Assembly (NCBI GenBank): GCA_046563655.1
Contig: CM102286.1
Span: forward strand, 2,232,001-2,296,000
DNA length: 64,000 bases
From: Yuukianura sp. NJ FZ-2021
Taxonomy: Eukaryota
Direction: 5' to 3'
The notes under the pieces are model-generated. The model had not been told where the DNA came from and did not search any database. It was given only the letters and a program-made list of their open reading frames with translations. Positions 3,175-39,231 of this stretch are shown here, piece after piece. The position numbers and the translations under genes were made by a program. Within the stretch, counting starts at the first letter, position 1, and each line of letters starts with the position of its first letter.

Positions 3175-6100
3175 ATGGACAAAGAAGACAATGACAAGAA
3201 GCCGAAAAGGTAAACAATTTTTCGAAATTTCAGTTCAGCTTTGACATGTACCACATTCGGGTTTTCCATAAATGGAAGTTTTGTGCTGGAATTTAGTAAA
3301 ATTAGTAACACACTTAAGTGAGGATTTAAGTTGAACTATCAGTTAAACACATAGTCGAGGTTAGGATGGACGAATTTTGCATTACTTAGCCATCGACTTC
3401 AATTTGAACTGGGTAGTTTTCATTTCTTTAAGGGAGAATCGCAATGGTAAAGTGAGGTTTCTTTTTAGACAGATGCGGTGGTAGAAGCTGAATTAATCAT
3501 CTTCTATTTGCCATTTTGTGCCATTTCGTAGTTCTCCTCAATGTTGTTATTGTTATGTTGCATTTTTGTTTGTTACGACTAACAATTGTAGTGCTGAAGG
3601 TTTTTCTAACGTAAACAAAAAAATAAATCTCATCTCAAGGTTAAAACGGGCGTCGGCGTGAGTCAGCTCATCATTATGTTCAACCAACTGCAATTGAATG
3701 CAATGTTTTTTGTTGTTGCTAAAAAGCTGTTTTATTTGTCAGCTAATGTCGTCTGCTAAAATTTCCAATTGCGTTGATTGTATTTTCACTCAAACCTTCC
3801 AGTTTAAACAAACTTCTCGAAATTTAAACTGCGCTGTTCAGACGTAAATTGGTATTTTTTTTCCGAAACTTTTTTTTCGTCTGGTGTTGTTGTTTAAAAC
3901 TACTGCGTAACATTTTTACGTAAAGACCAATTAAATTGCATTTTTTCGTAACCTTATCTTTAACCATCCCCGTCCGGTTTGAATTTTTTAAATAAAACGG
4001 ATGTTTACATTTAAATTTCGCACACTTTGGATGATTTAGGTTAGGGACCTACGTTGTTATTTTCTAAAGTAAAGTATTAGCATTCAGTTCAGCAGTTCAT
4101 GATGCTAGATTAGGTTTCATGGCTTTTGTTTAATGTAGTGAGTGTCATATTTGGTAACTCCGTTGACGTTAACAGAATAATTTACCAACTTATATACTAT
4201 ATTAACTATACTAGGCTAGAGCTTGGCAGTGGATACATTGCGGTCGAAACACGAGTAGGAGGCGGCGATACTTGACACCAAAATGTTTGTTGTTTTGGAC
4301 TTTGAACTGTGAAACTCCAACATTGAACATCACATTGTTTGGTCGTGTAAACTTTCTATTTGTTCATCGACAATCGTCTAACTTTAACAATACTAGTTTT
4401 CTCTGGTTCTGTAGAGTTTCCAAACTTCTACGATTTCCTAAATGACGCACATCAAATCATAACATGAAATTTCTAAAAGTCTTTGCTTCAACTTATTGCA
4501 ACTTTGGCACATCATCAATAATTTACTGCTCTATGACCTCGTTAATCCCTAATTTAAGTTAGTCAATGAAATGCAATTAAAGTTAATGGATGAAATCATA
4601 ATTTATTTATAATGACAGTAGACATTTGGCTAGCCTTTTTATCTTACAGAAATGAGATCATAAAAATGAAATTGATGGTGAAATATTCTAATTTGTTAAA
4701 ATTTTGATGCTTCATTGATTGATTAATAATTGAGTTTGATCGTTTTTTTTATAGTGGAGGGTCCAGAAATAGCGAGAAGCGACGGGAACGCTCGAAAGTA
4801 GCCGCAAGATGTCGCCGCGGAAAAGAGTCGGAAATATTTTCAGACCTTGCTTCCTGTTTACCACTTCCTGACCACCTTAGCAAAGCATTGGACAAGGCTT
4901 CAGTTGCACGACTAGCCTTGACTCATCTTAAGCTTAATTGCATGATGTCAGAACGTGAGTAAATTGACAATCTTTGACCTTCAAAATGTGCAGCATAAGG
5001 AAAAAAAATAACGTGGTGTTTTTGTTTTCTAGTGTTTGGAAGCACGTCAGAAGGCTCCGAGGAATCAGAGTTTGATAAATTCTTGAACCAAGCAATGGGT
5101 GGCTTTGTTTTTGTGGTTTCGGCTGATGCAGATCTTGTTTACGTTTCGGAAAGTGTGTCAAAGTGCTTGGGATTGGCACAGGCAAGTAAACAATAAATGA
5201 ATAGGAGTTGGAAATATTTGCGTCATAATACCGTATACATGCTAAACCTGTTGACGTGAATAGACCTTGTATGATACTTATCGAATTTTTACTTTGTTAT
5301 TGGTAGTGTGAAGTAATGGGTCAAAGCATATTCGAATTCACACACCCGTGTGACCATGACGATATTAAGGGGTTAATAGCCCTAAACAAAAGCACTCCCA
5401 AGGATCAACCAATCACACGCTCAGCATTTTTCCGAATGAAGTGTACAATTACGTCTAAAGGAAGAAATGTTCACCTTCGAGCTGCTTCGTACAAGGTAAT
5501 TTGCCAGGAAGGTGAATAACCAGGGATGTCAAAAATATTTCAAATATTAAAAATTAAAAATATTTATTTTAGTCTCCATACCCGTAATGTTATATTATTT
5601 TAACCCTAAATAATATTTTAGTTTTTTTTTGTTACTAAAAATATTGATTTATTTGCCCATGCCCTTAATGTTAAGTACGTAAATGTTTGGACATTTAAAA
5701 AAATTATAATTTTTTTTGTCAATATTTCGGGGGTTTTTAGCACATATTTTCGACATCCCTGCTCATAATCTATGTGATATCGGGATTACCGTAGCTTTTT
5801 TGGCAAAAAGTTTTTGTTTTTATTTGGAATGACTTGAATGGAATGAAATCTTTTTTCTTGTTTTTTTAGGGCGTTGCTTGTAACGGTCGCCTGTACTGGA
5901 ACGAGGAGGATCCAAAGTCACGTTGGTTTGTTGGCATTGGAGAACCACTTTCAGATCCCACCGACGTAAATTTCCCACTGAACAAACAGGCATTTGTGAC
6001 GCGACACTCGATGGACATGAAATGCGAAGATGTTGCTGGAAACGTTGAAGAGTTCGTGGGCTATGAACCGGAAGATTTGATTGGGAAATCGTTCTATGAT

Positions 6101-8470
6101 TTCCATCATGCGGTTGATGGAGAATTCTTGTCAGGGAGCTTGAAAGCTTGTAAGTAAATGAACTTTAGAAACACATTTTTTGAAACAATTTTTGCATTTT
6201 TTTTTGTTTTGGTTTAGTATACTCAAAGGGGCAAATTCAGACGGACAGATACAGATTTTTGGCGAAAACTGGAGGCTGGGTGTGGTGTATCACACAAGCA
6301 ACTGTACTCAAATCCGAAAATGGATCCAAACCCAATGGCATCATTTGTCTCCACTTCGTTACTAGGTAAAATATATTATGTAATGTATTGGAAACTTTTT
6401 ATGAAGTTTTAAGCTATTTCCAATCGTTTTCCAAAAAAAAAATTTTTTTTTTTCGGTGGGATACTTCTGATTTAGAGAGCGCAGCTAACTGTTGCGCAAT
6501 GAGACGTTCCACTGTATATCCATAACTTAACTCTTTTTGTTTGGTTTTCAGTGGAGTTGAAAATCAAGATGAAATTGTTTCTGTACTTCAATCGAAACCT
6601 GCTAATCTGTCATTGGAGTCTGTCAATATCCAAACTGAAGCGCTCCAACTTCAAGATATCTTTCCCGGAGCTGGATTTAGCAACCCAACACCCAATACCG
6701 CGAAAATATTTGCACCAAAAACAGAAGATATGGATTCAGGGTTCCTTATGCCCTACGAAGATACGATGATTGGTAATTCAAAGTTCGAAAACTATAAATT
6801 GGGAAGGAATGTACCAAGTTTTTATTAATTTGTGCTTATTTTGAAAATTTCAGTGAGCAAGGAAGAACCAGAGGACTTGACCCATTTGGCTCCCACTGCA
6901 GGAGAAGATTGTGTCCCACTCTGCGTTCCACTGCTGGATGATTTGCTTAGATCCTACGAAGAAGCTAACTTGTCCTTCACACAGTTTGGCAATTTCATTG
7001 ATATTGATGCACCGGAAATTCCGTTTTTTACGAATTACGAGTCATCACTGCCAAGCAGCGCAGAATCATCATCTTCAGATACTCCTCTTCTGATTGACCC
7101 AGTTTCACCTTCGTCCTTGTCACCACTTTTTCTGCACACGGATCCACAAATTACTAATGGTCTTGAGGAGCCTACTGTGTCGTATGTTCCATCCCCACCA
7201 CAATTGTTCGTGTCGCCTGGTCCAGATAGTAGACCATTAGTGTCAGATGAATCGCTGCGAGAGTATGGAACGCTGGAAGATGTGTGTTGTCCATGGGACC
7301 AAGACCTTGGTGGTCTCAAAACACCGGAATCAGGAGCAGACGAATCGATTTTGGACGAACTCTCAGAATTTAGAGCTCCGTATATTCCAACAGATAGTGG
7401 AGAAAAGCTATGTTCAGCGGCACCCATATTCAACATTTGGCCAGAACTTGAATTTCTGACGTAAGTTGTGCTGAAAAGTGTTTTCATTTTAATTATTCCT
7501 TATAATTTGAATTAATGAATCATTTTTTTGGAAACAGGTCACAGAGAATTGAGCTGAATGATGAAGCATGTGTCCCACTGGCTCCGCCTGGAATTGGAGG
7601 TGGGACGAGAGTAGATACTGGCTTCTCGACGTAAGTTGTGTTAAAAATTATTTTCAATTAATTATTTCACACAATTTGAATTAATGAAACTTTTTTTTGA
7701 AAACAGCCCACAGATAATTGAGCTCAGTGATGAAGTTTGTGTACCACTGGCTCCCCTGGATTTGGAGATGGGACGGCAATAGATACTGGCTTGTCGACGG
7801 AACAAGCGCAAAGAACTTCAAAGTTCTCAGAACAGAACATCGATCAAATCACTTGGACGATGGACATTGGATCAATCTTTGCTGCTAGAAAGCCAGAGGA
7901 CAAACCTCGTGTCATGACGAAGTCTATTTTTTCAACTCTTGATTCTCCGCCAGTCAAAGTGCGGAAAGTGGCTACAGTTACGGCGATGCCACGCGAAGAT
8001 TTGGTCGGACACGCTGAAGCAAACACGGATATTCGGAAGTGTCCGTTTCTGGAGTCTTATAGAACCTTGAGGAAAGCTGGAACTGGACCGGCAATGAAAA
8101 TTGCGAAGGTGGGCGTAGGAGATCCACCAACGAAGCCACCGCCAAGCGTAGACACTTCCAAGGCATTTAGGATTCTGGGTGGAACTCAAGGCATCGGTTT
8201 GATACGTAAAGTAAGTGTAATTGGAATGGGTGTAGATCGAGAGTTTTTGAAAAATTGCTAACGTTTTTATGTTTTTTATAGCGTGATTTGGGTGGATCGC
8301 TTGTACTGCCAGGAATCGATGGACGACTGCCAACATTTTATGAGTTGACGCAGCAGGACTATGAAATGATGGTTCCGCTTCTAGAAACGTCACTGTTGCA
8401 AGGATCCGAGTTACTGAATGCTCTTGATTCAGTAAATGATACTGGCAGTGGATTTATCCCCAGCATGTAG
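3175..8470 (+). CDS. sima: Hypoxia-inducible factor alpha (bHLH-PAS; HIF-1alpha/Similar-like), multi-exon
   Basis: Manually spliced exons 3175-3209, 4755-4954, 5033-5181, 5307-5495, 5870-6149, 6218-6365, 6552-6772, 6854-7460, 7538-7630, 7707-8210 (1-nt frame break near 7753-7756), 8282-8470. bHLH RNSEKRRERSKVAARCRRGKESEIF..LDKASV; PAS-A GQSIFEFTHPCDH..RMKCTITSKGRNVHL; PAS-B FVTRHSMDMK..KGQIQTDRYRFLAKTGGWVW; NODD LTHLAPTAG (6877-6894); CODD RAPYIP (7372-7389); CAD-like LTQQDYEMMVP..LLQGSELLNALD. Probable 5' UTR intron 2745-3041. Confidence 0.93.
5521..5761. mobile_element. hAT-like MITE (241 bp) in a HIF-alpha intron
   Basis: TIRs CAGGGATGTCAAAAATAT / ATATTTTCGACATCCCTG around an AT-rich core; TSD degenerate. 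Confidence 0.7.
7461..7798 (+). repeat. Tandem duplication of an intron + exon segment in HIF-alpha
   Basis: 7461-7630 and 7631-7798 both start GTAAGTTGTG, share AATTTGAATTAATGAA..AAACAG, and encode the similar peptides SQRIELNDEACVPLAP.. / PQIIELSDEVCVPLAP.. Confidence 0.9.
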
Positions 8471-9265: not shown

Positions 9266-11896
9266 TTACTTGGAATTCTTGCGTCTTCTAACATCCCCTT
9301 GACCTTTGTCCTGGTCGTCTTCAATGTGCTCAATCATATGTCTTTCCCGCTCTTCACCACTTCCTTCTTCCACGACTTCAAATTCACTAGAAGTTTTCCG
9401 ATCAGAGATATCTTCACTGCTTGTGCTGCTGCTACTGCCGCTTATCTTGCCTTCTGGCAGTTTTGGTACGACTTGGTCACCATACATGTCTTCATCATCG
9501 TCTACAAGTTTCGGTGGTTCGTCATCCGGTTCGATCGACTCGGAGTCAGCATCTCCTTGTCCCTTTTCGAAGTAGGGGAGTTCCAAATCTTCCTTGTCGA
9601 CTAGTGATTCTTTCCGTACTCGGACTGGTTCGGTCTCTGCAGCAGCCGTTTCTAGACAAAGAATTTCATAATGGATCGTCTGAAAGGAATTATTAATAGT
9701 CGTTCTGTTCATAAACTTACGACTCGCGCTCTGGAGGCGCTCCTTAGCCTTGGCATGACGGACTTCGAGAGTTCTGGACAGCGCAGTATCGTAGCCAACG
9801 TGGACACTAGGTTGACTAGGTTTGAAGAATTTGAACCAAGAGAGAAAAGCGATGATGCTGAGAAAGAATAGATTTGTGCAAGTTCCCATTACGGCGGAAG
9901 TGAGTGGCCAGTGGAACATGAGGTATCGGAGACCAGTAAAATGGGCATGGATCTTGAGGGAAGCTTGGTAAACTTCAATATTGTAACTTTGGATTTCAAT
10001 GAAGGCTTCCGTTACTGGATTGTTCTACCAAATACGAGACACAGTTAGCGATTGATCACAGCTTCTTAAGTATGATAAAGACAGAAGAATTCATACCCGA
10101 TCTTCTTGGAAGTTGGAGAACAATTCAATTGATAGAGTTTGTTTCTCTTCATAAGATCCAGCAAGGACGAGTGGGTAAAAGAAAATGGTGGAAAGCAAAT
10201 GAAGGAAACTGGACTTGTATTGAATCAATGATGAGCGACATGACTGCTCAACCGATTCCCCGTCTTTGCTCCGGAGACGAGCACAGGTCATGAACATGCC
10301 CTGGTTCCTGTTGGCAGGAGATTCGGGCAGTTCCAGCTCCAGAAGTATCTTGTAAGGCTGGCCAACCATCAGGAACTGCTCTCGCTTTGTTAGCGTTACA
10401 TTTGCTGATGGAAAGTCGCACATGGCTCGGGAAGTTCGGTCGCACGATCTCCTGTTAAAAACACAAGTTAAAATTCAAAAGTTAATCTGTCGTCGTCATC
10501 ACTAAAACTAAAGTCTTACGTAAACTGAAGATGAACTGGACGTGTATGTGATACAGGGGGAATGTAGGAGTAGTAAAAACTGGCGTACAGGAAAATGGAC
10601 ATCCATAGCAGTGCTGTCACTGTCAACAGTACGAGGATGGCCTTGTAAATCGTTTCCTGCAAAATGGCGAAAAAATACAACGTAAGAACCAAAATTTCAA
10701 TTACTGCAGTTTAAGCCGTAAAGGGCAACGTAGTTCGCTTATGGGACAGAGCGGACCCGTACGATTTGGCTGAAAATTTAACCAGCTGTTCTCGAGACCT
10801 ATAGGAACAACTTTTGTACAGGGCTCAAACGGGGCATCAAACGGTTTGACCTCCAGAGGTCACCAAAGGTCAAGTGGTCATCCTATGACGACACGCCTTA
10901 AGTAAGGTGTCGTTGGAAAGCTCTTGACCTTCTGGTTCAGAAAATGTATGGGTATTAATACTTTGGTTCAGCCGTTTAGCCGTAAGAGGTCACCGAAGGT
11001 CAACTATGAAAAAAGTTGCAAAGTACCAACAAATGAAAATCGTTCTATGACAACCGACAAAATGACCTATACAAAAGTTGTTCCACTCGACAAGATAAGC
11101 AACTTTTCCCAATGAGATTTTTCTCTACAATGAACAGCTGATAAGATACCCGCCAAGACAAAAACTGCTAAAAGTAGATTGCAGGTAGGACATTCGCCAC
11201 GGTAAAATGAAATTGGACAACAACGATGGTTGTACAGCTCTATATTACCCCAGTACATGCAAAGGGTTCAAGAAAGCAACTTCTTAAAAAAATATGCTAA
11301 CGTTTATATCAAAACTGTAGGAAAAGAATCAGGTTCCGTTTTACTGTGGCGAATGTCCTACCTGCAATCTACTTTTAGCAGTTTTTGTCTTGGCGGGTAT
11401 CTTATCAGCTGTTCATCGTAGAGAAAAATCTCATTGGGAAAAGTTGCTTATCTTGTCGAGTGGAACAACTTTTGTATAGGTCATTTTGTCGGTTGTCATA
11501 GAACGATTTTCATTTGCTGGTACTTCGCAACTTTTTTCATAGTTGACCTTCGGTGACCTCTTACGGCTAAACGGCTGAACCAAAGTATTAATACCCATAC
11601 ATTTTCTGAACCAGAAGGTCAAGAGCTTTCCAACGACACCTTACGTAAGGGGGGTTGTCATAGGATGACCACTTGACCTTTGGTGACCTCTGGAGGTCAA
11701 ACCGTTTGATGCCCCGTTTGAGCCCTGTACAAAAGTTGTTCCTATAGGTCTCGAGAACAGCTGGTTAAATTTTCAGCCAAATCGTACGGGTCCGCTCTGT
11801 CCCATAAGCGAACTACGTTGCCCTTTTAATTATGCTAACCTGTGTCCCGCTCAAGGTGTTAATTATGTTGTCTCTCAATTTCGTTAGCCCGAACAT
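9266..11896 (-). CDS. Seipin: Seipin (BSCL2 homologue), lipid-droplet biogenesis ER protein
   Basis: Minus-strand exons 11896-11840, 10656-10520, 10451-10097, 10024-9721, 9651-9266. [64 protein letters not shown] and [20 protein letters not shown] are characteristic seipin segments; acidic C-tail ending RRRK. Confidence 0.93.
10720..11826. mobile_element. 1.1-kb palindromic (foldback/MITE) element in seipin intron 1
   Basis: Arms 10720-11207 and 11339-11826 are colinear inverted copies (488 bp each, about 8 substitutions seen, no indel) around a 131-bp spacer; no coding capacity. Confidence 0.9.
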
Positions 11897-13083: not shown

Positions 13084-24587
<11,504 letters not shown>

Positions 24588-26502: not shown

Positions 26503-29500
26503 ATGGTAAGCTATTATTAGGATTTGTACTTCAAAAGTTATTTACGACCTTGTTGAAGAAGAAGCCGCTTTCTGTTTGTACGGGCGGAAAACGTTACACC
26601 TACGCTTTAACTACATAGTGAATTTATTTGTATGTTACAGCAAGAAAACGATCCGCCATATTTGACTGTCGGGACGGAAGTGAGTGCCAAGTACAAAGGG
26701 GCCTTCTGTGAAGCCAAGATCCGAAAAGTTGTGAGAGTCGTCAAATGCAAGGTAAATATGATTAACAATGATTTTAAATGACGTTTTTTTATCAGTGACT
26801 AGTAAGTGAATACGAATATGAAGAATTAAAGGGTCCATGCCATTACATCGAAAAAAAGACATCGAAAGAAAAGACATCGGAGAAAAAGACATCGAAAAGA
26901 AACACATCGAAAGTAGAAACACATCGAAAATATAAACACATCGAAACAAAAGACATCGAAAAAAAGACATCGAAAATGCAAACACATCGAAACAAAAGAC
27001 ATCGAAAACTAACCTCAGCCAGCCAAACTACGTACGCAATCACTATTGCGTGCTTTACCAAACCTAACGCCGCGCCTTCGGCGCGGAAATTCCAACGAAA
27101 TTTGTGCGTGCAGTTTCAGTCTAAAAATGAAAACTTTAGGTTTGGCGCTAAGTTTGGTAAAGGACGCAATAGTGATTGCGTGCGTAGGTTTGGCTGGCTG
27201 AGGTTAGTTTTCGATGTCTTTTGTTTCGATGTGTTTGCATTTTCGATGTCTTTTTTTTCGATGTCTTTTGTTTCGATGTGTTTATATTTTCGATGTGTTT
27301 CTACTTTCGATGTGTTTCTTTTCGATGTCTTTTTCTCCGATGTCTTTTCCTTCGATGTCTTTTTTTCGATGTAATGGCGTGCTTCGGAATTAAATGTTAG
27401 TAATAAGTGAGTTGTTCTTTCAGGTAACATTCAAGTCTGGACTGGGCAGTGTTCTCTTGTCAGATGACCAAATCAAAGGAAGTCTTCGGGTAAATTCATG
27501 CAAAGTGTCATGTTCATCCTGATTCTTATGATAACTTTATAGCGCATTAACTAAAAAGATGTTCTATACAGGTAGGTGCAAACGTTGAAGCGAGACACCC
27601 TGACAAGAATGCCTACATCGAAGCAGTAATTAACAAAATACAAGACTGCAGTCAATACACAGTTGTTTTTGACGATGGAGATATAACAACTCTTCGTCGT
27701 TCTGCTTTATGTCTCAAAAGTGGACGACATTTTAATGAGAGCGATACCTTGGATCATTTGCCACTGACCCATCCAGAACATTTTAGTAATCCTGTTGTAG
27801 GAGGCAGGCGGAATGTTCGGAGGAGACGAGATGCATTGTGAGTCTTCTTTTTATTAACCTGATTCAACCATAAAACTGGTTCTTTAATTTGATTTCGGTT
27901 GCAGGTCGGATGATATTGGGGAAGGAGATGACAGCGGAGATGATGAGTCGTTACCGTCAAGCACCAAAGGAATGTCGCAGTTCAATCAGGACGACGGAGA
28001 CGTCGATATTGGAAAAGTAGTCTGTGTGGAAATCACGGACAAGAAGAAGGGAAAAGATAGTTGGTTCCCTGCTGTCATCGTCAGTCCTTCGGCTCAGGAG
28101 ACTGTCAAGATTCGGACCAAAGATGAGTACCTTGTCAGGTCATTCCGAGATGGACGATAGTAAGTGTATCTTGTTGACCTTAAGTTTCCTTCGATGCCTG
28201 ACATTACTTAATGTCATTCTATCATTTTAGCTATACAGTTCCAAAGAAGGAAATCACAAGTTTTTCGAAAGACAGCCACGGTCTAAAGAACGATGCGAAT
28301 TCAAACATTCTCAAAACCGGTAAGGTCATGGTTTAAACAGCATAAGAGCAAAAAGTGAAACATTTTGTAATTGCCTCCTACTGTTTTTAGCTATTGAGAA
28401 GGCGATTCAATTCATTGACAAGAATGAGCTGCCAGCACATTGGGACAAAGATATCCTGTTTTCCGCTGTTGACGATCCCACTGAAGAAATTGAAGATCCC
28501 GGAGAGGGTTCCGAGTCAGAAGTAAGTTTTCCTCTTTTTATTAAGAAAACCAATGAATTCTTAACGAAACTTCATGCATTTCGGACTTCTAGGATTCGGA
28601 GGAAGATTCTCAGGCGGAGGAGAAGGACTTATTTGTGGCTAAATTGTACAAGTACATGGAGGACAGGGGAACACCAATCAACAAAGTACCTATAGTGTGT
28701 AACCGAGACCTGGATTTACACAAACTATACAAAGTGGTAGTTGGACGTGGCGGCTACAACAAAGTGACTAATTCCAGTCAGTGGAAGTCCGTTACGGTTA
28801 AGATGGGATTCGGCTCCATGCCAAGCACGTCCACGATCAATCTCGTCAAGCAAGGATACAAAAAGTATGTAAACTAAAATTCCTAAGTCTTTAATGATCA
28901 AGCTTATCGAAATTATTGCATTTCCTTCCATTATTTCCAGGTTTATCCACAACTTTGAAGAGTTTACGCGAAAATTGGGCTGTAATTTTCCTGCTGGAGG
29001 TTCTTCTACATCTGCACGAGCTAATCGAATTATGTTCAGAGATCGGCATACTTCTAGTTCGTCAAAGGAGTTGAAGAAAGCAGAGGAAGCCAAGGCTGCC
29101 CAAAAAGAAGCCATCAAAGAGCCTACTCCACCAGTGGAAGTTGTGGCTCCAACAATCGAGTCAACGCCTACGGTTGCCCCACCGACTCCGACCCCACCAC
29201 AACCTTCTGTATCAGCAGCAACTGAAGACATAGAAGCCAAGAAGGTCGATGATGCCGAAGAGATTCCACGGAGAGCTCGCAGTCGCCAAGAAAATCGACA
29301 GAAAACGAAGGAAGAAGAGATGGAAGAGAAGGAAAAGGGAGAACAGACTCCGAGTCCTGTGAAAAAACGAAGACGAATGGCGAACAAGGACAAGGAAGAG
29401 AAATCGTTGCCAGTAGTCACTACACCAGTCGTGCGAGCAGTATCGGAACCAGCATCATCAACATCTTCAATATCTACGCCTATAATGGCTCCTGCTTCTC

Positions 29501-32500
29501 CCACGAAACGAAGTATTGGAAGAGGCAAATACAAGAGGAAAGACGAGAAAAAGGAAATGCTGGAGCCAGTTATTCCACCCGAAGAGTATCCGACTGGCAG
29601 AGAATTTGTTGGGAAGGAGATTCAGATACAAATAGGCGATAAGCTCAGCGTTTACTATGGGAAGGAATCGGAGGGAAAGAAATACGAAGCTAAGGTAAGT
29701 AACTCAAAACTTGAATTTCAAAAATTTCATTCAGTACTTTTCAAAAATTACACTTCATCAGTTACTAACTTTCTGCAAATTTAATAGGTTGTTGACCGAA
29801 ACGAAAATCAAGAGCTGTTCTTTGTGCATTATGCTGGCTGGAATACGCGTTATGATGAGTGGATCCCGCGCTATCGAATCGCTGAAAATTTAAGTTTAAG
29901 GACTGAACAAGTAACTTCAGTTCCACAAGGTTGGTACTTGCAAAGCTAATTTTTGTGAATTTGAATTGTAATTTCTAATCTGAATACTAATGTTACCTTA
30001 ATTGCGACGGTTTTATTGGATTCATTCGTATTGCTTTGTGATCGTTTAAAATACGTTTAGTAGCTTTTTGCTTTTTTAGCACTGTGTGGCTCTTCGCTTA
30101 GTGTCTTACTTTTATGCATTTTAGGTAGGATTTGTGCTTTGGTAGTGTAGTAATGGTGTTGATGAATTTGCTATGTTGGTGTTCATGTAATTACTAACGC
30201 CTAATACTAACAATCGGTACTGAATTTCAGATGAGAGGAATGAAACTTGTCGAAGAGTAAATAGAAAATTTAACGCTTCTCTTAAAGGTCGCGGTCCATC
30301 TCAGTCGTCTACGTCTGATGGAACTGTGAGTGATTCAGGGACGCCTGGAAGTTTCAAGGGTCCAACCCCTGGGGCTAAACCTGCCAGAAAGAAACTAAAG
30401 CAGCCGACAATGTCAACTCCCGCCAGTGCAACCAAAACCAAATCCAATGTTACGCCGAGAAAACGTTTGTCAAGTGAAGGAGACGCGAAATTGACAAAGA
30501 GAACAAGGAAAAGAGGCAAGTTATTTTATCGCTAGCTCTTTTTGATTTTTTAAACAGTTTAAACAAAGTTCTCAGTTTTCTTATAAGTTAAATTTGTTTC
30601 AGCACTTTCAGGTGGAGAACCTACGGGAGATTCGTCAGAATCCGAAGGAAAGGCAAAACCATTGAAACGCATTCGAAAACCAAAGAAAATCTATGACCCA
30701 GGAGAGGGTGATTGGAAAAACAGTGTTCCAAGTCCAGATATTTTGGATTTCTCTAATGAAGAAAGACGTAAAGAACCAACTCAGTCGAATCAAGTAATTG
30801 ACTTGAATAAGCTACGATCCGAAATGAAGGGAATTGATAAAATGGTCAAAGTTTCTGCTGTTGTACCGGAAATGGCCCAAGTCACCTCGGAACTTCCTGG
30901 AAAAGGGACTGAGTTGGACACAAAACTGGAGATTCGTGCTTTTTCGAAGGCAGAGACGCCTCGGGCTACTATCGAAGCGGAAGCAGAAACGAAACTGACC
31001 AAGGAAGAAGTGTCAGCGATGCTGCAAAATGCTGAAAAGAGTGTTGAAATTCCAAAGGAAGAGAAAGTTGATGCTGATACGGATGTGAAACAGGAGAAGA
31101 TTGTTGAACGAGGGCCTAGTCTGAAGGAAACAGCGAATTCCGACAAACTAAAGTTGTTGCCGGAAGTTGATGTGAAGGAGGAGGCTGAAGAGTCCAAACC
31201 TAGAGGCAAAGATGGCGGCGAGGGACCTCCTGAAGCAAGATGTTAAACCTACGGAAGATGCTGAAGTTGAAATTGGGAAGCCTGCGCAGATCGAAAAGGC
31301 GAAAAATAGTATAATGGAAACTATTGAGCAAGTATCGTCTAATACTGCTGGAGTTAATCAAGTCTCATCAATTGACATTATACCTGCACCGTCATCGAAA
31401 GCTACGAAAACACTGGCAGAACCAATCACTAGTATTCCCCGTCCACCACTGCCAGCTCTACTGAGAGCATCAGCTCCAACACCAGTAAGTTAGCATATAT
31501 AAAGTCAAATTGTTCATGAAACGACAATTTTTTGTCTAAAACAATGTATATGCGACGATCCTTTCTGTACATACAACGCTTTATGATTGTTTTTGCTTTA
31601 CTGTTTCAGATTTTACCAAATTTGATTCCACCGGTTCGAAGCACCACACCAATTACAATTACAATTCCACCGCGAGCTCAACGACCAATTTTAATCAAAT
31701 GTCCAACTCCTACAAGTTCAACTATTGCGGTTCCTACTACAATAACAATCTCTACGCCTTCTTCAGCTCCAGCTCCAACGCCACCACAGCTGATAATAGC
31801 CAAACCTTTGATTACTATTCCGAAGAGTCTGCCAGCCACTGCGAAACTGACAGGAATGGACGAAAAGGAGAAAGATTCTGCGCAGGTCCAGCAACAACAG
31901 CAAATTCAGACAGTAGCATCTCCTGTCCCACCAAAGACTTCATTGGAAAAGGTGTCACCTACTATAACCTTGATAACGACAACTTCACCTGTAAAAGGAG
32001 CTGCGTTAACTGCTGGACAAAGTACTCCAACGGTCCACGTTCGGCCTAAACTGACAGAAACTGGGCCTAAACTGGCTTCTTACCCGACAGCACGTATTCG
32101 AGCGCCTACTGGAGTAGGTTCTGGGCAACTATTACCGTTAACTCCTGGATTTGGCGGAGTTAAGAAGCGGAGGAAGGTAAGTAAACAAATTGTTGAGTCT
32201 TCTGGCTCCTCGGATGAGCAGGAAGCGAAGAGACAAAAACGACAAGTTTATGCTCCTAAGACTTTTAAGCAAGTTACCTTGCAAGTTAATCAGCCACCGA
32301 AAACTTCACAAGGAAGTTCTGTAACTCCGGCAGCAACTACGACTATTTCTACTACAATAGGTGCAGTAGTTGCCTCAGCATCGACTTCATCTTCAACTTT
32401 GACTGGTGCACCACCAACTCTTGCACAAAAGAAGCAACAAATTCCTTCTGCCAAGGTGACACCGATACTGAAAGTGCAGTATGGCTCGGAGAAGAGACCG

Positions 32501-33773
32501 ATGTCGCCAGGAGGAAAAATTGTTTCTGGAAAATACACAAGAGTGGAACCTCTGCTTAAAGTTGTCAAGAAACCGGCAGCTTCTGCGTTGAAATCGGCAC
32601 AACCGCCAGCATCCAGTAGTCAAGTATTGCCAGCATCCAGTACTCAAGTATCGCAGGCTCAACAACCACTTGCCAAAAAAGTACAACCAGTGGCAGTATC
32701 TTCGCCAGCACAAGCACCAATGACTCCAATATCACGACCCACTCTGCTGTCTGAGTCCGACCAATTCAAAAGCTCCGTCGTTGCTCCGCCTATCCAACGG
32801 TCACCTTCCCCGCCAACAATACAACTGCCTGAACTGGAGTCTCCGATGGAAGAGCAAGAACCGTTTGTTCCGTTCAAATCGTTGTTGCCACTCATTAACA
32901 CCACCGCGACTCCACCAACAGTCGTTCCTGACACGTCCAATGTTAATGTGTTGAATGTCAAGAGTGATCTTACTCTGGAGGTCAAGAAGGAAATTGCCAC
33001 AGAGGGAGACAAGAACTTTCCAGTTTCGGCTTTTGAATCACGTGGGGCGTTTGGAACTGAAAACGAAAACGAAGATGAGCAAGACACGAAGCCAATAATG
33101 TCCACAGGGTCAATGGAACACCCAGCTCCAGGAGAGGAATCTTGTCACTCCTTGCTTTGCGAAGAAGAAATTCCTGGAAGTCCAACGCCAGGAGCAGATT
33201 CCAAACCGTTTCTATTTGAAGACACGAATGCCATGGAGTTCCCACCGCACAAGATGACTCTACCGGTTGGCAGAGCTGAAAGTGTGCTGAACCAAAGCAT
33301 ATTTTCTTCACCGCCAACAGTAGTGCCACCGACGGAGAAAGCACTCGCATCTTTTCCGGTGACAACGTCGGCTACTCCAACCAAAACTGGTGATTCAGTG
33401 CTTGAGACGACATCGACCACAGTTTCAACGGCATCTGTGGCGCAAGAGAGAGCATTTACGGCAGTTAGCTCGATATCGGCCCTTTACAGGCATGCATTTG
33501 ACAAGGATTTGGTAAAACCGAAACAACTTTCCAGTGGAGAGGAAAACCAGGTTGAAAATTCACCGCTGCCAATGTCATCGACTAGCAGCATTTCGACGGG
33601 ATCTCCTCGCGCGTTAGTTTTAATGTTAACTTTAACCGTATAGTGGCGTAGTTAAGTTTATGTTAACCTTTGAATTTCTTAAATTACAGGGGAGACGGTG
33701 AGACTAAGCTGAGCAGTGGAGAAAACAAGTCCAAAGAGCCCTCGGATACTGACAGCATTGACTGTTTACCAAA
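26503..33773 (+). CDS. ARID4: AT-rich interactive domain protein 4 (ARID4A/B, RBBP1; hat-trick-like), 3' end lost in assembly gap
   Basis: Exons 26503-26505 (ATG only), 26641-26751, 27424-27489, 27572-27837, 27905-28159, 28231-28319, 28391-28521, 28593-28864, 28941-29694, 29788-29929, 30231-30515, 30603-31485 (frame break ~31190-31246), 31610-33612, 33690-gap. Tudor [36 protein letters not shown]1NT/PWWP-like [34 protein letters not shown], chromobarrel [13 protein letters not shown], LxCxE (LLCEE, 33152-33166). Confidence 0.94.
26831..27386. mobile_element. Foldback (Mutator-like) non-autonomous element, 556 bp, in an ARID4 intron
   Basis: 8-bp TSD GAATTAAA (26823-26830, 27387-27394); ~230-bp inverted arms built from tandem ACATCGAA(A)n units; short central spacer. 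Confidence 0.85.
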
Positions 33774-33873
33774 NNNNNNNNNNNNNNNNNNNNNNNNNNN
33801 NNNNNNNNNNNNNNNNNNNNNNNNNNNNNNNNNNNNNNNNNNNNNNNNNNNNNNNNNNNNNNNNNNNNNNNNN
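33774..33873. other. Assembly gap (100 N)
   Basis: Run of 100 N between an ARID4 exon and an internal GNPAT exon; true gap size unknown. Confidence 0.99.
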
Positions 33874-36155
33874 TACATCCGTCGTCGATTTGGCGGGGAT
33901 CCACTGTATTGGGCTCTAATCAGCGAGTATGTGAAAACAGCTGTTCTGGAAGGCGGGCATCCACTGGAAATGTTCGTCGAAGGAACCCGAAGTAGAACTG
34001 GGAAGTCACTCAAACCCAAAATCGGTCTTTTGTCAATAATTTTGGAACTGGTCAGTTCTGGTCAAATTCCCAACATTCTTATCCTGCCCATCAGCATGAG
34101 TTACGACCGTACCCTGGAGGAACGGCTATACGCTCATGAACTTTTGGGGCAACCTAAGCCCAAGGAATCAACAAATGTAAGGACATGCAAAATTTTTAAG
34201 CACCGATTAGCTTTCATTTACTTATGGAGTGATTAATTTTTGTTGTACTGTGTATACAGGGCCTCATGAAAGCTTTAAAGTGGCTGGGAAGCCAAAGTTA
34301 CGGCTCAGTCTACGTAAACTTCGGGAATTTAATTTCCGTCCGAGAAATGCTCGAAGCCAAGTCAAATCCTGTCACAAGTATTCGTGCCGAACAGTATCTC
34401 AAAAGTGTTCAAGAAATTGCTCTCAAAGTAGTATTAGATCAACAAGCAAATCTAGTCGTACCGATCATTGGAGGAATTTCGTTAATTGTCATTTCAGAGG
34501 TAACTAGTGAAAACACTTAACCTTCAATTACTAATTGATTATCCTTGCTCTTCTTAACCAACATTATCTTGTTTCTGATTCCAGTTAGCAAGAAATGATG
34601 CATTTGCAATGCCCTTGAAGTCTCTCCTTCAGCGTCTCGAATTTCTTCAATTTTTGTTGAATTCAAGACATTCCCGGTTTGGGTATCCACTCATGCGCGA
34701 ATCGCTGGAATCCAATGTCCGTTATATCATCAGCGTACATCCATCTCTGCTCAGTATTACAACGGAAAGTCCAGGCGGTGATCTCGTCGTTGGAAAATTC
34801 GCGTCTGGAGATTCAATTCAGTTGATGGTGTTTCAACATTATACAAATCAAATCCTCAACAACATTTTTCCATTATGTATCGTGGCTCTTCTGGATCAAG
34901 TTGACAACGTCATAAGTCCTCTGGAAAATGCAAACAAAGACTCAAGTATTTCAAATTCCTCGTCCGAAGTAGAAGGAAACTACATCTTTATGAGAGAAGT
35001 TTTTCAAGAGGATTTTCTGTACGAAACGAGTACAATTAGGCAGGTAATTGTGACTTTAGGTGTAGTACTTGCACTATTTTACTGGCGGAAAAAAACATAC
35101 CGTAAAACTTCTTATACAAACCCCGGCGTCTTTTTATTTTTCGTGCCTCCAGTCCTGGCTTGTATTCCCGGAGAGTACTGGAGACCCGACATGTATTGAG
35201 GAGGTATTTATTAGAAGTTTTACGGTAATGCTTTGGTGGTTTGTTGTAATACAGCTGTGGAACTGTAGGTTTAATACTTTCCCATGGTCATTTACATAGT
35301 AAACGTTGTTTAAAGCATCTGGATTGTCTGGAAAGCAGCAGAGAGGTTTTACAGCTCCGTCGCTTTGCCTCCTTTGTTTGTTGTGACATGATACTCTTGA
35401 GAAATCCCACACAGACACTTGTGGCTTGTTTCGACTCAAAATTCACACACACACTACACAAACCAAGCCGCTTTTAAGAGCATATGCTGTCAAACTAACA
35501 ACTTAACGAAAACTAGATACTAAAAACTTAGCGAAATCTAAAACAACTTTATGTCCACATGTCAACTTACTTTTGTGTTATTAGCTCTACTGTGTAAATG
35601 TTAATGAAGTAAATTGAATACATAATGATAAATTTTTCAACTTGAGTTTCAAAAACTGTTTGGTTTTGCTTTGCAGGAACTGGAGTGGGCATTGACCTTG
35701 TACAATTCGTTGAAAGATGCTTCCAAGTGTGAACGTGTTGGAAATACTTGTCGTGATGGAAGCTTCGAATCAAGTACTGCTGAATATGGACACTTCTGTG
35801 AGCTACAAATCCTGCGCCGTGCTCTGGAACCTTACTTTATGTCGTACTGGGGAGTTGCAAAAAAGCTGGAAGAAGTAAATTTTTTAACATTCAAAATGTT
35901 AAAATATTTCAAATTCAGGTTTTCTGTGATGATTTCTAACATGAGGTTTCAATTTGTTTTGACGTTTTAGATAACTCGGATCAATACGGCGACACGTTAT
36001 GAAATGAAGGAATTTGGGATTTCGTGTCAAAATTTTCTCACAGAGGAAATGAATTCTGGAAAAATTATCAATGCCTATGGAGCTCTTTCGCTGGAAACAA
36101 TTTCCAACGCACTTTCTTCATTTGTTCGATTTTCAGCTTTGGAACGAGTCAAAAT
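33874..36155 (+). CDS. GNPAT: Dihydroxyacetone-phosphate acyltransferase (GNPAT/DHAPAT), partial: 5' part in the gap, terminal exon not located
   Basis: Exons <33874-34176, 34260-34499, 34585-35043, 35677-35874, 35971-36155. IRRRFGGDPLYWALISEYVK..FVEGTRSRTGK..PISMSYDRTLEE..ELLGQPKPKEST|GLMKA matches the acyltransferase motifs of GNPAT; C-terminal YGALSLETISNAL segment. Confidence 0.88.
35098..35227. mobile_element. TA-flanked Tc1/mariner-type (Tc2/pogo-like) MITE, copy 1
   Basis: TA|CCGTAAAACTTCT...AGAAGTTTTACGG|TA in a GNPAT intron. Confidence 0.8.
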
Positions 36156-37409
36156 GTAAGTGTCTAAAAAGAACTAAAACTAAAAACTAAAGAAAAAGAA
36201 GTAAGGTGTCGGTGTAAGCAAGCATGCATGCATTGAGAGAGGCCACGGTTTAAATTTTATAATTTATGATGTTGGCTTGTTCAAAAGAACTCAAGAGTCT
36301 GACATATGAGCATTTTTCGAATTTTGTTGTTTCATTTTTTTTTTTCGTTTTTGTACTAATATGTCTTCGTTTCATGTCAAATTTTCTGAAATTATCATTG
36401 CATAATGTAAAGACTAAAGAGGGTTTTGTTTTTATTTGTTAACCAAGTTGATGTAAGATTAACTTTTTTTAAAAGGTTTTTTTAGTATTGCCTTTGATTG
36501 ATAAAGTTGCGACAGTTTTAGTAGAAGGAGCTTTCTTCTATCCACTTTGGGTTTTCGTTCTTATCTTCCGCTCCTTGTTCTAAATGTTGCTCTCCAATTC
36601 TGTTTTTTTTTTTTACTTTTTCTGACTCTGACTTTCTGACGTGCTGTGAATTTGAATCTTTTGTGATTTTGATTTTTTTTCTATTTGTTTCAAAGGGAAA
36701 ACGGGTCTTTTGGAATTGTCGTGAGAGATTCCTGTCGTCTAACTTCAATTTCCAACCGCTTTGGTAAGTTCCAGTTTTACTTTTTATTTTTTACAGTCAG
36801 TAGAATGGTGATAATGGATTAATCTTTTCGTGAGAGGCAGACTGTGTGTTTAAAAGCGAATGGGGGGATATATGACGCATAATTAGTGTTGTACTGTATA
36901 CTAAGTAAAGTGATTCAAATGCATTTTAGTCTTAAGTTTGCTAAAGTACGACTAAAAATGTTAAGTTGTGGTTACCCCGAAGAAGGGAGGCTTTTCTGGA
37001 ATATTGTCTGTTGAGGCTTGACTTGAAGTTTTTTTTGAACAGGAAATTGAGATAATATACTTGGACTTTGTTAAGCTCAAGCCCAAAAAGTTTAGTTTTC
37101 TTAATAGGTTGCATTTGAACTGGACTTTTTTTGGTTGCTTAGTTTTAGTTGAAGGAAAAGTTAGTCCAAGGAAACATAAACTGGAGTGATTTGTCTTTAT
37201 TAGTGACCAAGAATTGAAGCTAAGAAGAGTTGCATCTTTCACCACCACTTCCAATTCCAAGTATATTTCTGTGGTGTGGTTGACTTTCTACTTTTGTGGT
37301 TTTTGTAACTTGTTCAGTGTTATTATTAGTGTTACTCTGTTGGTTTTCGTAGAGCGCCAATTTATATCTCACAGAAAAATATCTCGAGTTCAGTAGGTTT
37401 GAGACAGTT

Positions 37410-37760
37410 TTTGTAAAAATATTTTGGCACATTTTGGGGAGATATTTGAGTCAGATATATTTTGAGGGATATACTTTGGGCAGAGATATTTTGAGATACT
37501 TTGGCCAGAGATATTTTGAGGGAGATACTTTGGCAAGAGATAGTTTGATGGAGATATTTTGGCAAGTAGCAAGAGATATTTAACAAGAAATATTTTTTGG
37601 AGAGCATTCTTTGAGTGGACCGTCTATTTTTTGGTATTTTGGTATTTTGATGTAAATATTTTTTTGATCTTTTGCTTAATAGTTTTTGATATTTCGATGG
37701 TATATTTGTTGATATTTTGATGTAATATTTTTTGATATTTTGTTTAGTATATGTTTTGTT
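37410..37760. repeat. Degenerate tandem repeat (GAGATA(T/C)TTTG.. / GATATTTT units)
   Basis: Repeated ~14-15-nt units visible directly; possibly one arm of a decayed foldback element. Confidence 0.7.
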
Positions 37761-39231
37761 CTAATCAAAATCCAGAGATGTTTGTGTTTTAGTAACAGAT
37801 TTTGGAACCTTCTGTGCATCATTCAGTTGGTTGCAAATGTAATCTGAAGGGGAGTGTTTTCCCGGATCTTTTCGTTTCATCATAATTAAGCGAAGGGAGG
37901 AGTACCCAGCAGGGAGATGTTAGCTCCTGCCACGGTTTTTCTGGAAGATCCTCTGATTGAGTTTAAGCTTAAAAGGAAGCGAAGGCAACGTTCAAAAAAA
38001 TCCTGTTTCAAGTCATGCAGGCACAAGGGAGGGAGGGGACTTAAAACTAACGAGAGAGAGTGAGTTGGATTGAAAATTTTGAACAAGGACTTTTCTAAAA
38101 GATTTTTTTTTATTTTGATTTTGATTTTAATAGAGTGGAAGTGGAGAGTGTTTTAGGAAGCTGTTGCTCGCTGGGAAGAAAAAATGAGGAAGCCATTCCC
38201 GTATTTCATCTTTTTTTCAAAGTTCGGATCATAAGATCAGCAGTAGCTAAATGGGAAACTGGCAGGCAGCGGGAAATTCCTGTTGGTTTTTACAGTTTTC
38301 AAAAAAAATTATGTAATTCAAAAATTTTCGGTGTCAATTCTTGCAAAATTGAGGCATTTGCAACAGTTGAACTTTGCGAGGAAAATTGTTGTAGATTTTT
38401 TTTTTCATTTTGTGTTTCTTTTTGATTTTGATTTTCAACTTCGTTTTCATTTTAAAAGTTCCACAGATTTTGACGATATTTTTTTTACATTTTAAGTTTG
38501 TTTCAAATTTTGACCAGTTTTCGTTTTCATTTGGAGTTTCTCGCCGATTTTTCAAGTTTCTCAGTAAAATTGTATTTGTGCTGCTCGAATTTTGTGAGAT
38601 TCGGAAAAGTTAGGTCTTCAATTGTTAGATTTTTGATGGAATGGCTTAAGAAAAGGCAACGTAAAGCAAGGCACGTCGCCTTCACTTCTTCTTCTATTTG
38701 CGTTTGGGGATGAATGGAAGGCTGGAGAAAGTTGGGTGATGCTGGATGCTGGTCTGAGACTACTGGGACTGATGTTGGTTTATGAATCGATAGAGAGATG
38801 AGCGTGGAAAGTTCTCCGGTGTTGAGGCTCTTCTGGATTCGTCTGGCGAAGGAGAGGGAGTGAATGGGAAGAGATCAGATTAGATGAGATTCTGTTCCAG
38901 AAGGGAAAAGATGCGATTCAGGCGTCAGCTAGGGTCCTTGGGACAACTTATACTACTTTTTTCGGAGCTTCGCTTAGGTTAGGCTAGGAAAAAACCGAAT
39001 TTTTCGGACAGACTGAGACCCTAAAATGGCTTAAGGGTGATGCTGAATCTGAGAGGTTCACACTTGACTGGATTCCCCAGATGTGATCTCTGGTCACTTA
39101 TAAAAGTGAAAGTGCTTGAAAATTGGAATTTTTCAGCCAATTTGTTCAAAAAACTAGATTTTAATGGGATCTATTTTAGTTTTTTGGGTTTTTAGAGTCC
39201 ATTTAGGAAAAGTTTGCAGAGGAAGATGGAA

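What the first reader, a model, noticed from the sequence alone, without database searches (positions are those of the whole stretch)
8282..8470. HIF-alpha C-terminal activation domain retained but FIH-target asparagine replaced by Met
The last exon encodes LTQQDYEMMVPLLETSLLQGSELLNALD, which aligns with the HIF CAD (human [29 protein letters not shown]). The position equivalent to Asn803 is ATG/Met (8369-8371), while the p300/CBP-contacting LLQG.ELL.ALD helix is intact. Inference: an FIH-insensitive HIF-alpha controlled only by prolyl hydroxylation, possibly with FIH loss in this lineage. Caveat: one deleted A plus one inserted G could convert AAT GTT into ATG GTT.
Basis: partly seen in the sequence, partly recalled or inferred. 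Interest (0 to 1): 0.7.

Follow-up and report, generated by a model that had tools for sequence, protein, structure and literature searches.

The report
Springtail HIF-alpha without FIH-target asparagine
A springtail-type hypoxia-inducible-factor gene keeps its C-terminal co-activator-binding tail but has methionine where the oxygen-sensing enzyme FIH normally hydroxylates an asparagine, a lineage-specific form of a loss already known in other invertebrates.

Summary
Window 8282-8470 (+) is the last exon of a compact HIF-alpha gene (about 4755-8470). It encodes a CTAD-like tail in which ATG 8369-8371 lies in the column of human Asn803.

The Met is not a sequencing error. Three independent relatives (L001 genomic, L002 and L003 transcript-like) carry E-[M/I/L]-M-V-P with the same ATG. 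Synonymous sites are near saturation (pS 0.75-0.85) while pN is 0.17-0.23.

A HIF-alpha tree places the window among springtails. The unnamed sister P0003, Folsomia and Orchesella keep the canonical EVNAP, so V-N-A to M-M-V is derived in one subclade.

The most likely reading is a CBP/p300-binding CAD that FIH cannot hydroxylate, with oxygen control left to the two retained prolyl-hydroxylation motifs.

Two limits:
- FIH presence could not be tested, because no genome is held.
- As assembled, the CAD is out of frame. Exon 9b is one base short in a C-run (7753-7756), giving a TAG at 7780-7782 from the canonical acceptor. This may be an assembly error, a rescue by splicing, or a real truncation.

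CADs without a target Asn are already described (PMC6488082), so interest is modest.

The parts
4755..4954 (+). HIF-alpha exon 2 (bHLH). The short first coding exon was not located.
   Evidence: Pfam bHLH_HIF1A 63.7 bits. AG/GT boundaries. Aligned to P0002. The search for exon 1 was unsuccessful.
5033..5181 (+). Exon 3 (start of PAS-A), with a GC donor.
   Evidence: The donor dinucleotide is GC.
5307..5495 (+). Exon 4 (PAS-A).
   Evidence: 78% identical to P0002. AG/GT boundaries.
5870..6149 (+). Exon 5 (PAS-B, first part).
   Evidence: Pfam PAS_3 and PAS_11, sub-threshold on the split exon. 76% identical to P0002.
6218..6365 (+). Exon 6 (PAS-B, second part).
   Evidence: PAS_3 25.7 bits and PAS_11 25.2 bits..
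6552..6772 (+). Exon 7 (linker).
6854..7460 (+). Exon 8 with both prolyl-hydroxylation motifs: NODD LTHLAPTAGED at 6877-6909 and CODD EFRAPYIPTD at 7366-7395. It ends in phase 2.
7538..7630 (+). Exon 9a, 93 nt, phase 2 to 2. It is a tandem duplicate (with its intron) of the 5' part of exon 9b.
   Evidence: Alignment A1 of the two units. Identity is 64/76 in the intron part and 78/92 in the exon part. It reads open in frame.
7707..8210 (+). Exon 9b. The C-run at 7753-7756 is one base shorter than in 9a. From the canonical acceptor the frame ends at TAG 7780-7782. The conserved downstream frame (7734-8210) is reached only with one more base or from the AG at 7734-7735.
   Evidence: The downstream frame is 51% identical to P0002. 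The related locus L001 has an intact phase-2 junction.
8211..8281 (+). Last intron, 71 nt, phase 0.
8282..8470 (+). Last exon: a CAD/CTAD-like tail. E-M-M-V-P lies at 8363-8377, the Met in the Asn803 column at 8369-8371, the LLQGSELLNALD helix follows, and the stop is at 8468-8470.

Best explanation
The window holds the HIF-alpha (sima-type) gene of a springtail-lineage animal. In one subclade of that lineage (the window plus three unnamed relatives) the FIH target triplet V-N-A of the C-terminal activation domain has become [M/I/L]-M-V. The rest of the domain is kept: Leu at -8, Asp at -4, Glu at -2, Pro at +2, and the LLQG-x-[D/E]L[L/I]-N-ALD helix.

Inferred mechanism: the tail still docks on the TAZ1 domain of CBP/p300, but FIH cannot switch it off because there is no asparagine to hydroxylate. 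Oxygen control of this HIF-alpha would then rest on prolyl hydroxylation of the retained NODD and CODD motifs and on degradation.

Shown here: the substitution, its conservation under purifying selection, its derived state among springtails, and the retained prolyl motifs.

Inferred, not shown: CBP binding, FIH refractoriness, and whether this particular assembly makes the CAD at all, given the one-base frame problem in exon 9b.
For: Sequence and alignment
- The Met codon is at 8369-8371.
- A tool-made alignment puts that Met in the Asn803 column of solved human CTAD chains.
- All 4 clade sequences have Met there, with 25 invariant columns including E, M, V, P and SLLQG.

Independence of the relatives
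- L001 is a genomic contig with the same exon structure and the same seipin neighbour.
- L002 and L003 are intron-less contigs.

Selection
- Last exon, window against L001, L002 and L003: pS 0.85, 0.75, 0.77 and pN 0.17, 0.23, 0.20.

Phylogeny
- Window+P0002 has support 99, adding P0003 gives 99, and the 7-row clade with Folsomia and Orchesella has 100 (SH-aLRT, quick tree, 32 rows).
- P0003, P0006, both Orchesella and Folsomia all have DCEVNAP.

Motif counts
- 42 of the 120 listed HIF-alpha hits have VN[ATS]P.
- Of the 78 without it, only P0002 keeps the alphaB flank (1 of 78).

Other
- The NODD and CODD motifs are present.
- Asn-to-Ala CADs of human and Tribolium stay active and largely escape FIH repression (PMC6488082, section 8 passages).
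Against: - As assembled, reading from the canonical acceptor of exon 9b stops at TAG 7780-7782, so the CAD is out of frame.
- The Pfam CTAD score is below the curated cut-off in the window (20.9 bits), L001 (23.3) and L002 (15.8), against 25.
- CBP/p300 binding, FIH action, and the presence of FIH or of a second HIF-alpha gene in this genome were not testable.
- The springtail placement rests on one gene tree made with the quick method.
Confidence: 0.6

Rival explanations
1. In this genome the CAD is not part of the main protein. A real one-base deletion in exon 9b truncates HIF-alpha after the CODD, giving about 620-650 residues of the model without exon 1. The downstream CAD exon would then be a recently orphaned remnant or belong to a minor isoform, comparable to CAD-less isoforms known elsewhere.
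For: - The frame from acceptor 7707 ends at TAG 7780-7782.
- Exon 9b lacks one base relative to its duplicate 9a (CTCC-CCTGG).
- The relative L001 has an uninterrupted phase-2 junction, so the expected frame is the one that breaks in the window.
- A CAD-less Hif-1alpha isoform exists in locusts (PMC9427102, passages).
Against: - The downstream frame stays open for 159 + 62 codons and is conserved: 51% and 60% identity to P0002.
- In the last exon the window has no private change at any column where the three relatives agree (alignment).
- The deficit lies in a homopolymer run, a common site of assembly error.
- An AG at 7734-7735 would restore the frame.
- The relatives L002 and L003 are continuous reading frames through to the CAD.
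Confidence: 0.2
2. FIH still regulates this CAD without hydroxylating Asn. It might bind the retained alphaB segment and compete with CBP, or it might modify another residue.
For: - The FIH-recognition flank is unusually well kept (L at -8, E at -2, P at +2) in a CAD that lacks the Asn (1 of 78).
- PMC6488082 (Discussion) notes that lack of hydroxylation does not preclude an FIH-CAD complex, and that other springtails have FIH hits (S1 table).
Against: - The same paper urges caution about competitive binding.
- The -1 Val, described there as strongly influencing the catalytic rate, is also replaced.
- The flank is equally explained by CBP contacts.
- Nothing here shows that FIH exists in this species.
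Confidence: 0.07
3. The gene is a divergent paralogue. A second HIF-alpha with a canonical EVNAP tail in the same genome carries the FIH-regulated function.
For: The genome could not be searched, so a paralogue cannot be excluded.
Against: - The window, L001 and P0002 behave as orthologues. They form a tight clade nested beside P0003 within springtails, and the seipin microsynteny is shared between the window and L001.
- No second close relative of P0002 appeared among the 568 hits, 120 listed.
Confidence: 0.08
4. The Met codon is a sequencing or assembly artefact of AAT/AAC.
Against: ATG stands at this codon in four independent sequences, with synonymous differences in the neighbouring codons: GTT/GTC, and CCG/CCA/CCC/CCT.
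Confidence: 0.01

Closest known systems
Human HIF-1alpha C-terminal activation domain with FIH (PDB 1H2K) and CBP/p300 TAZ1 (1L8C, 1L3E)
   Same: - Position at the extreme C-terminus.
- L-T-x-x-D-x-E ... P flank.
- LLQG-x-ELL-x-ALD-x-V helix, by the residue-by-residue alignment.
   Different: - V802-N803-A804 is M-M-V.
- There is one residue less between Pro and LLQG.
- A 12-residue extension follows the ...SVN end.
- No asparagine is available for hydroxylation.
Canonical springtail HIF-alpha (Folsomia candida, Orchesella cincta, O. dallaii; unnamed P0003, P0006)
   Same: Same gene family clade (support 100) and same domain order. The tail aligns column by column.
   Different: These keep DCEVNAP and pass Pfam CTAD in the precomputed domains. 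Folsomia and Orchesella cincta are listed with FIH hits (PMC6488082 S1 table).
CAD-like tails without an FIH motif in Apocrita, Obtectomera and some bivalves (the 'green' class of Hampton-Smith et al. 2019, PMC6488082)
   Same: The alphaC helix is kept and there is no target Asn. The predicted result is CBP binding without FIH hydroxylation (section 5).
   Different: In those taxa the alphaB region is described as noticeably disparate. Here it is intact except for the triplet (1 of 78 non-canonical hits keeps the flank). FIH status is unknown here; it is absent in Apocrita and present in oysters.
Tribolium castaneum HIF-alpha CAD and FIH (tested experimentally in PMC6488082)
   Same: A hexapod CAD that activates transcription. 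Its Asn-to-Ala mutant (N856A) stays active and is much less repressed (passages). That mutant is the laboratory analogue of the natural Met.
   Different: Tribolium has the Asn and is an FIH substrate.
Locust Hif-1alpha2, a CAD-less splice isoform (PMC9427102)
   Same: It is a possible analogue if the exon 9b frame break is real: a HIF-alpha with the ODD but no CAD.
   Different: The locust form arises by an alternative 3' splice site and polyA site, not by a frame break (passages).

Membership tests
HIF-alpha (bHLH-PAS, HIF/Sima group) | HIF-type bHLH domain | tested here: met
   PF23171 bHLH_HIF1A, 63.7 bits against a 27-bit cut-off, on exon 2.
HIF-alpha (bHLH-PAS, HIF/Sima group) | Two PAS domains | tested here: met
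   PAS_3 25.7 bits (cut-off 25.6) and PAS_11 25.2 bits (cut-off 25) on exon 6. The other exons are sub-threshold because the domains are split by introns. Exons are 76-85% identical to P0002 and L001.
HIF-alpha (bHLH-PAS, HIF/Sima group) | Oxygen-dependent degradation motifs (NODD and CODD prolines) | tested here: met
   LTHLAPTAGED (6877-6909) and EFRAPYIPTD (7366-7395) are conserved in P0002 and L001. This is by sequence only; hydroxylation was not tested.
HIF-alpha (bHLH-PAS, HIF/Sima group) | Groups with HIF-alpha orthologues in a tree | tested here: met
   7-row springtail clade, support 100. All 31 other rows are HIF-alpha hits. No Sim, Trh or NPAS outgroup was included.
HIF-1a_CTAD (Pfam PF08778) | Score at or above the curated cut-off | tested here: not met
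   20.9 bits (window), 23.3 (L001) and 15.8 (L002), against 25.
HIF-1a_CTAD (Pfam PF08778) | CBP/p300-contacting alphaC helix LLQG-x-ELL-x-ALD at the C-terminus | tested here: met
   LLQGSELLNALD aligns to [12 protein letters not shown] of the solved chains. SLLQG, L, N-A-L-D-S are invariant in the four clade members.
HIF-1a_CTAD (Pfam PF08778) | FIH preferred target L-x5-[D/E]-V-N (as given in PMC6488082, section 5) | tested here: not met
   L at -8 and E at -2 are present. Position -1 is M (I or L in relatives). The target residue is M in 4 of 4.
HIF-1a_CTAD (Pfam PF08778) | Encoded in frame with the rest of the protein | tested here: inconclusive
   Out of frame as assembled. It is in frame with one more base at 7753-7756 or from the AG at 7734-7735. 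It is in frame in L002 and L003.
HIF-1a_CTAD (Pfam PF08778) | Binds the TAZ1 domain of CBP/p300 and activates transcription | not testable with these tools
   No CBP sequence of this organism was available. No complex job was run.
CAD-like tail without FIH motif ('green' class, PMC6488082) | alphaC conserved, alphaB disparate, no target Asn | tested here: inconclusive
   alphaC is conserved and there is no Asn, so both of these are met. alphaB is not disparate: the flank is kept, in 1 of 78 non-canonical hits.
CAD-like tail without FIH motif ('green' class, PMC6488082) | FIH gene status of the species | not testable with these tools
   No genome is held. No Pfam match to any JmjC or cupin family at E <= 1e-4 (150 ORFs), 0.01 (7 ORFs) or 1 (window exons); 5 of the 162 window ORFs of 75 aa or more were left unscanned.

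The most novel reading that the evidence does not exclude
The conserved Met (with a second hydrophobic residue, often Met, before it), buried where Asn803 sits in the TAZ1 interface, could act as a non-enzymatic or Msr-reversible redox switch. Oxidation to methionine sulfoxide would add an oxygen atom at the site where FIH adds one to Asn, and would release CBP/p300. This springtail subclade would then have replaced asparagine hydroxylation by methionine oxidation as the second oxygen/ROS input to HIF. Nothing here tests this. It rests only on the strict conservation of Met within an otherwise intact alphaB segment.
Probability: 0.04. Interest if true: 0.7.

Novelty: new variant of a known kind. 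Interest (0 to 1): 0.33.

Why it matters
HIF-alpha has two oxygen inputs: prolyl hydroxylation, which controls stability, and asparaginyl hydroxylation by FIH, which controls co-activator binding. Comparative work has shown a patchwork of CAD and FIH loss among invertebrates. In those cases the whole alphaB region has usually decayed.

Here the change is close to a natural point mutant. The FIH and CBP-contacting flank is kept and only the V-N-A triplet is replaced. The sister springtail lineages keep the canonical motif, and by a published table they also keep FIH.

This gives a clean natural pair of close relatives, with and without the Asn, for two questions:
- Are the so-called FIH-recognition residues really kept for CBP binding?
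- Does FIH persist once HIF is no longer its substrate?

It adds a case rather than a new principle.

Tried and rejected
- Own genome. None is held, so neither FIH nor HIF-alpha paralogues could be sought.
- Reads. The look-up of sequencing runs listed 6 runs: X1-X4 from one sample with shares 0.35-0.70, X5 at 0.17, and the RNA run X6 at 0.11. No run was laid, so the shares are not used as evidence for anything.
- A third protein search with the exon 9b frame (7734-8210, near lengths) found nothing among 16 candidates. No fragment from the same species bears on the frame break.
- The representative search gave 9 hits. Six of them (P0123, P0125-P0129) are repetitive proteins without the motif and were discarded.
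- Three of the six metagenome loci (L004-L006) are long contigs. Their ORFs share LTHQDYEMMVPVLES by chance with the search pattern, and I rejected them as bacterial look-alikes.
- Oysters. By eye their tail can be read as E-V-[M/I] at the Asn column, but MAFFT puts E there. I make no claim beyond the paper's statement that they lack the motif.
- Alternative frames or donors that would bypass the frame break. Frames 0 and 2 from 7707 stop within 15 nt (by reading; one search prints the models).
- The first coding exon. A regular-expression search upstream gave only two implausible 4-codon candidates.
- Tandem Repeats Finder did not report the 170-bp duplication. It was shown by direct alignment instead.
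- Earlier scan notes: three look-ups, nothing returned.
- Literature. 'factor inhibiting hif' + 'collembola' gave 0 papers. 'springtail' + 'hypoxia-inducible factor' gave 5 papers, 4 listed, none about the CAD by title.
- Graham & Presnell 2017 (PMC5470732). A term search found only a reference-list hit, so it is cited only through the locust paper's account.
Full report
**What is there.** The + strand of window 4755-8470 carries a compact HIF-alpha gene with short introns.

- Exon-sized open frames score as bHLH_HIF1A (63.7 bits) and PAS.
- They align in order to an 822-residue unnamed protein, P0002, found with the last exon as query. It was the only hit of 55 candidates, at E 8.4e-13.
- I derived a model with AG/GT boundaries, plus one GC donor at 5182. 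The exons are 4755-4954, 5033-5181, 5307-5495, 5870-6149, 6218-6365, 6552-6772, 6854-7460, 7538-7630 (9a), 7707-8210 (9b) and 8282-8470.
- The short first coding exon was not found.
- Exon 8 holds both prolyl-hydroxylation motifs: LTHLAPTAGED at 6877-6909 and EFRAPYIPTD at 7366-7395.

**The observation.** Frame 1 of 8282-8470 gives 62 residues and a stop, including LTQQDYEMMVPLLETSLLQGSELLNALD. The other frames are closed.

- The two Met codons are 8366-8368 and 8369-8371.
- Pfam's HIF-1a_CTAD model matches at E 2.6e-4, but at 20.9 bits it is below the 25-bit cut-off.
- A profile of the four clade sequences finds the solved human CTAD peptides 1h2k_S, 1l3e_A and 1l8c_B at E about 2e-3, and a CITED2-HIF fusion chain at 3.6e-4.
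- The printed alignment places ...D-y-e-l-m-v-P... on ...D-C-E-V-N-A-P..., and LLqGsdLlnaLD on [12 protein letters not shown].
- So the second Met lies in the Asn803 column, the -1 Val is also replaced, and the +1 Ala is Val.
- Antisense open frames over the region have no family match.

**The Met is not an error and is conserved.**

- A search of 1.84 billion representatives with the exon gave 9 hits. Three are true relatives: P0122 at 78%, P0002 at 60% and P0124 at 66%. The other six are repetitive proteins.
- A metagenome scan with the four-sequence alignment returned six loci.
  - L001 is a 5.5-kb genomic contig with the same exon-intron layout and the same convergent seipin neighbour as the window.
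  - L002 is the P0002 transcript contig.
  - L003 is a 1.1-kb transcript-like fragment.
  - L004-L006 are chance look-alikes in long, apparently bacterial contigs.
- The four tails read E-M-M-V-P, E-I-M-V-P, E-M-M-V-P and E-L-M-V-P. Twenty-five columns are invariant, among them the Met, Val, Pro and SLLQG.
- At the DNA level the Met is ATG in all four, while the neighbouring Val and Pro codons differ synonymously.
- Nei-Gojobori proportions for window against L001, L002 and L003 are pS 0.85, 0.75, 0.77 and pN 0.17, 0.23, 0.20. The tail has therefore been under purifying selection across a divergence at which silent sites are saturated.

**Whose gene, and the direction of change.**

- With P0002 as query, 568 proteins scored E <= 1e-30, and the best 120 were listed. 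The nearest named ones are springtails: Orchesella dallaii, O. cincta and Folsomia candida.
- I built a quick maximum-likelihood tree from 31 of those 120 hits, chosen by me to span arthropods and molluscs, using the first 450 residues of each. I added the window's exons 2-8, joined in the script (32 rows, 428 columns).
- The tree gives window+P0002 (support 99), then P0003 (99), then a 7-row clade with Folsomia, P0006 and the two Orchesella (100).
- All five other members of that clade have DCEVNAP. The M-M-V state is therefore derived within one springtail subclade.
- The organism is inferred from this one gene tree only.

**How unusual it is.**

- Of the 120 listed hits, 42 have VN[ATS]P followed by the LLQG-type helix.
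- The 78 others are mostly Lepidoptera, Hymenoptera, Hemiptera, Daphnia and oysters.
- Only P0002 among them keeps the alphaB flank [LI][TS]xxD[YFCA][EDQA]xxxP. Among the canonical ones, 41 of 42 have it.
- Hampton-Smith et al. 2019 (PMC6488082; I read the abstract, sections 5 and 11, passages of section 8, and two rows of the S1 table) sort HIF-alpha tails into four classes.
- One of these, the 'green' class, covers Apocrita, Obtectomera and some bivalves. It keeps alphaC, has a disparate alphaB and lacks an FIH motif. It is predicted to bind CBP but not to be hydroxylated.
- The authors also note that FIH-targeting residues might be kept for CBP binding in some organisms.
- The present tail is a cleaner case of that idea: strong conservation of the whole CAD with only the target triplet replaced. 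It does not fit any of the four classes exactly.
- The same paper shows that human N803A and Tribolium N856A tails remain active and largely escape FIH repression. This is the experimental basis for expecting the natural Met form to be FIH-refractory.
- As I read the column layout of its S1 table, it lists FIH hits for Folsomia candida (55% identity, E 5e-94) and Orchesella cincta. FIH is therefore ancestral in springtails.
- I did not see the figures, and I searched the supplements only for four names.

- Between exon 8 and the large exon 9 there is a tandem duplication of about 170 bp (intron plus the first 93 nt of the exon).
- Identity between the two copies is 64/76 in the intron part and 78/92 in the exon part. 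There are 2 synonymous and 9 non-synonymous codon differences, so there is little constraint on this linker.
- The upstream copy (9a, 7538-7630) is a clean phase 2-2 exon.
- The downstream copy, the start of exon 9b, is one base shorter in a C-run (7753-7756; CTCCGCCTGG in 9a against CTCCCCTGG in 9b).
- Reading from the canonical acceptor at 7707, with or without 9a, the frame ends at TAG 7780-7782.
- The frame that continues into the conserved SKFSEQNIDQITW... region and the CAD is offset by one. It is reached only if a base is missing from the assembly, or if the AG at 7734-7735 is used as acceptor (exon start 7736). That AG has no pyrimidine tract of its own.
- In L001 the homologous junction is an uninterrupted phase-2 join. 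L002 and L003 read straight through.
- The downstream window frame is open for 159 + 62 codons. In the last exon the window has no private change at columns where the three relatives agree.
- I therefore favour an assembly error or a very recent or heterozygous variant (about 55%). Rescue by the downstream AG comes next (about 20%), then a real truncation (about 25%).
- I could not check this. No fragment of the same species was in the protein database.

**FIH.** No whole genome is held. Of the window's 162 open frames of 75 residues or more, 150 were scanned against Pfam at E <= 1e-4. Seven further frames in and just upstream of the HIF-alpha region were scanned at E <= 0.01, and frames covering most HIF-alpha exons at E <= 1. 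None matched a JmjC or cupin family, and five frames were left unscanned. The scan found seipin, an MRCK-type kinase, an ARID4-like gene and a GPAT-like acyltransferase. Whether this lineage lost FIH (as in Apocrita) or kept it for other substrates (as in oysters) is open.

**Verdict.** The mechanism proposed, a CBP-binding tail that FIH cannot switch off, with oxygen control through the prolyl sites, is the best reading at about 0.6. It is inferred from sequence and from published Asn-mutant behaviour. It is a new variant of a phenomenon already described. The frame break in exon 9b must be resolved before anything is said about this individual genome's protein.

Noticed in passing
window 7461-7800: A tandem duplication of about 170 bp (intron plus the first 93 nt of exon 9) creates a new in-frame 93-nt exon (9a, 7538-7630). 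The copies are about 84-85% identical in both the intron and exon parts. The breakpoints lie at the shared GAC|G microhomology. The related locus L001 has a single copy.
   Followed up: yes
window 7753-7756: A one-base deficit in a C-run of exon 9b, relative to its duplicate, puts the conserved C-terminal 221 codons out of frame. It may be an assembly error or a real frameshift.
   Followed up: partly
window 5182-5183: The intron after exon 3 appears to use a GC donor (CAG|GCAAGT) rather than GT.
   Followed up: no
window 9269-10474 (-) and L001 3863-4951 (-): A seipin gene lies tail-to-tail just downstream of HIF-alpha, in both the window and the related metagenome contig L001. This is conserved microsynteny.
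   Followed up: partly
window 13361-24435 (+), 27888-33640 (+), 33667-34517 (+): Neighbouring genes by Pfam on open frames are an MRCK-type kinase (Pkinase, KELK, C1, PH_MRCK, CNH), an ARID4-like gene (RBB1NT, ARID) with a 707-codon open frame that has no family match, and a GPAT-like acyltransferase.
   Followed up: no
L004-L006, about 3900-4297: ORFs on long metagenome contigs (apparently bacterial; no family scan was run) carry LTHQDYEMMVPVLES, a chance 13-of-17 match to the CAD core. The PDB entry 2q3l (uncharacterized protein) matched the same profile stretch at E 0.028.
   Followed up: no
window 16001-20000 and 36001-44000: These are stretches of strongly positive GC skew (0.20-0.30 in 2-kb windows) with few long open frames. 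The cause was not examined.
   Followed up: no
proteins P0051, P0081, P0090, P0093, P0103, P0115, P0121 (Lepidoptera): Some lepidopteran HIF-alpha tails have a variable [DE]-x-N-x-P about 20 residues before the retained LQGTSDLL helix. It may be a decayed remnant of the EVNAP site. It is not conserved among species.
   Followed up: no
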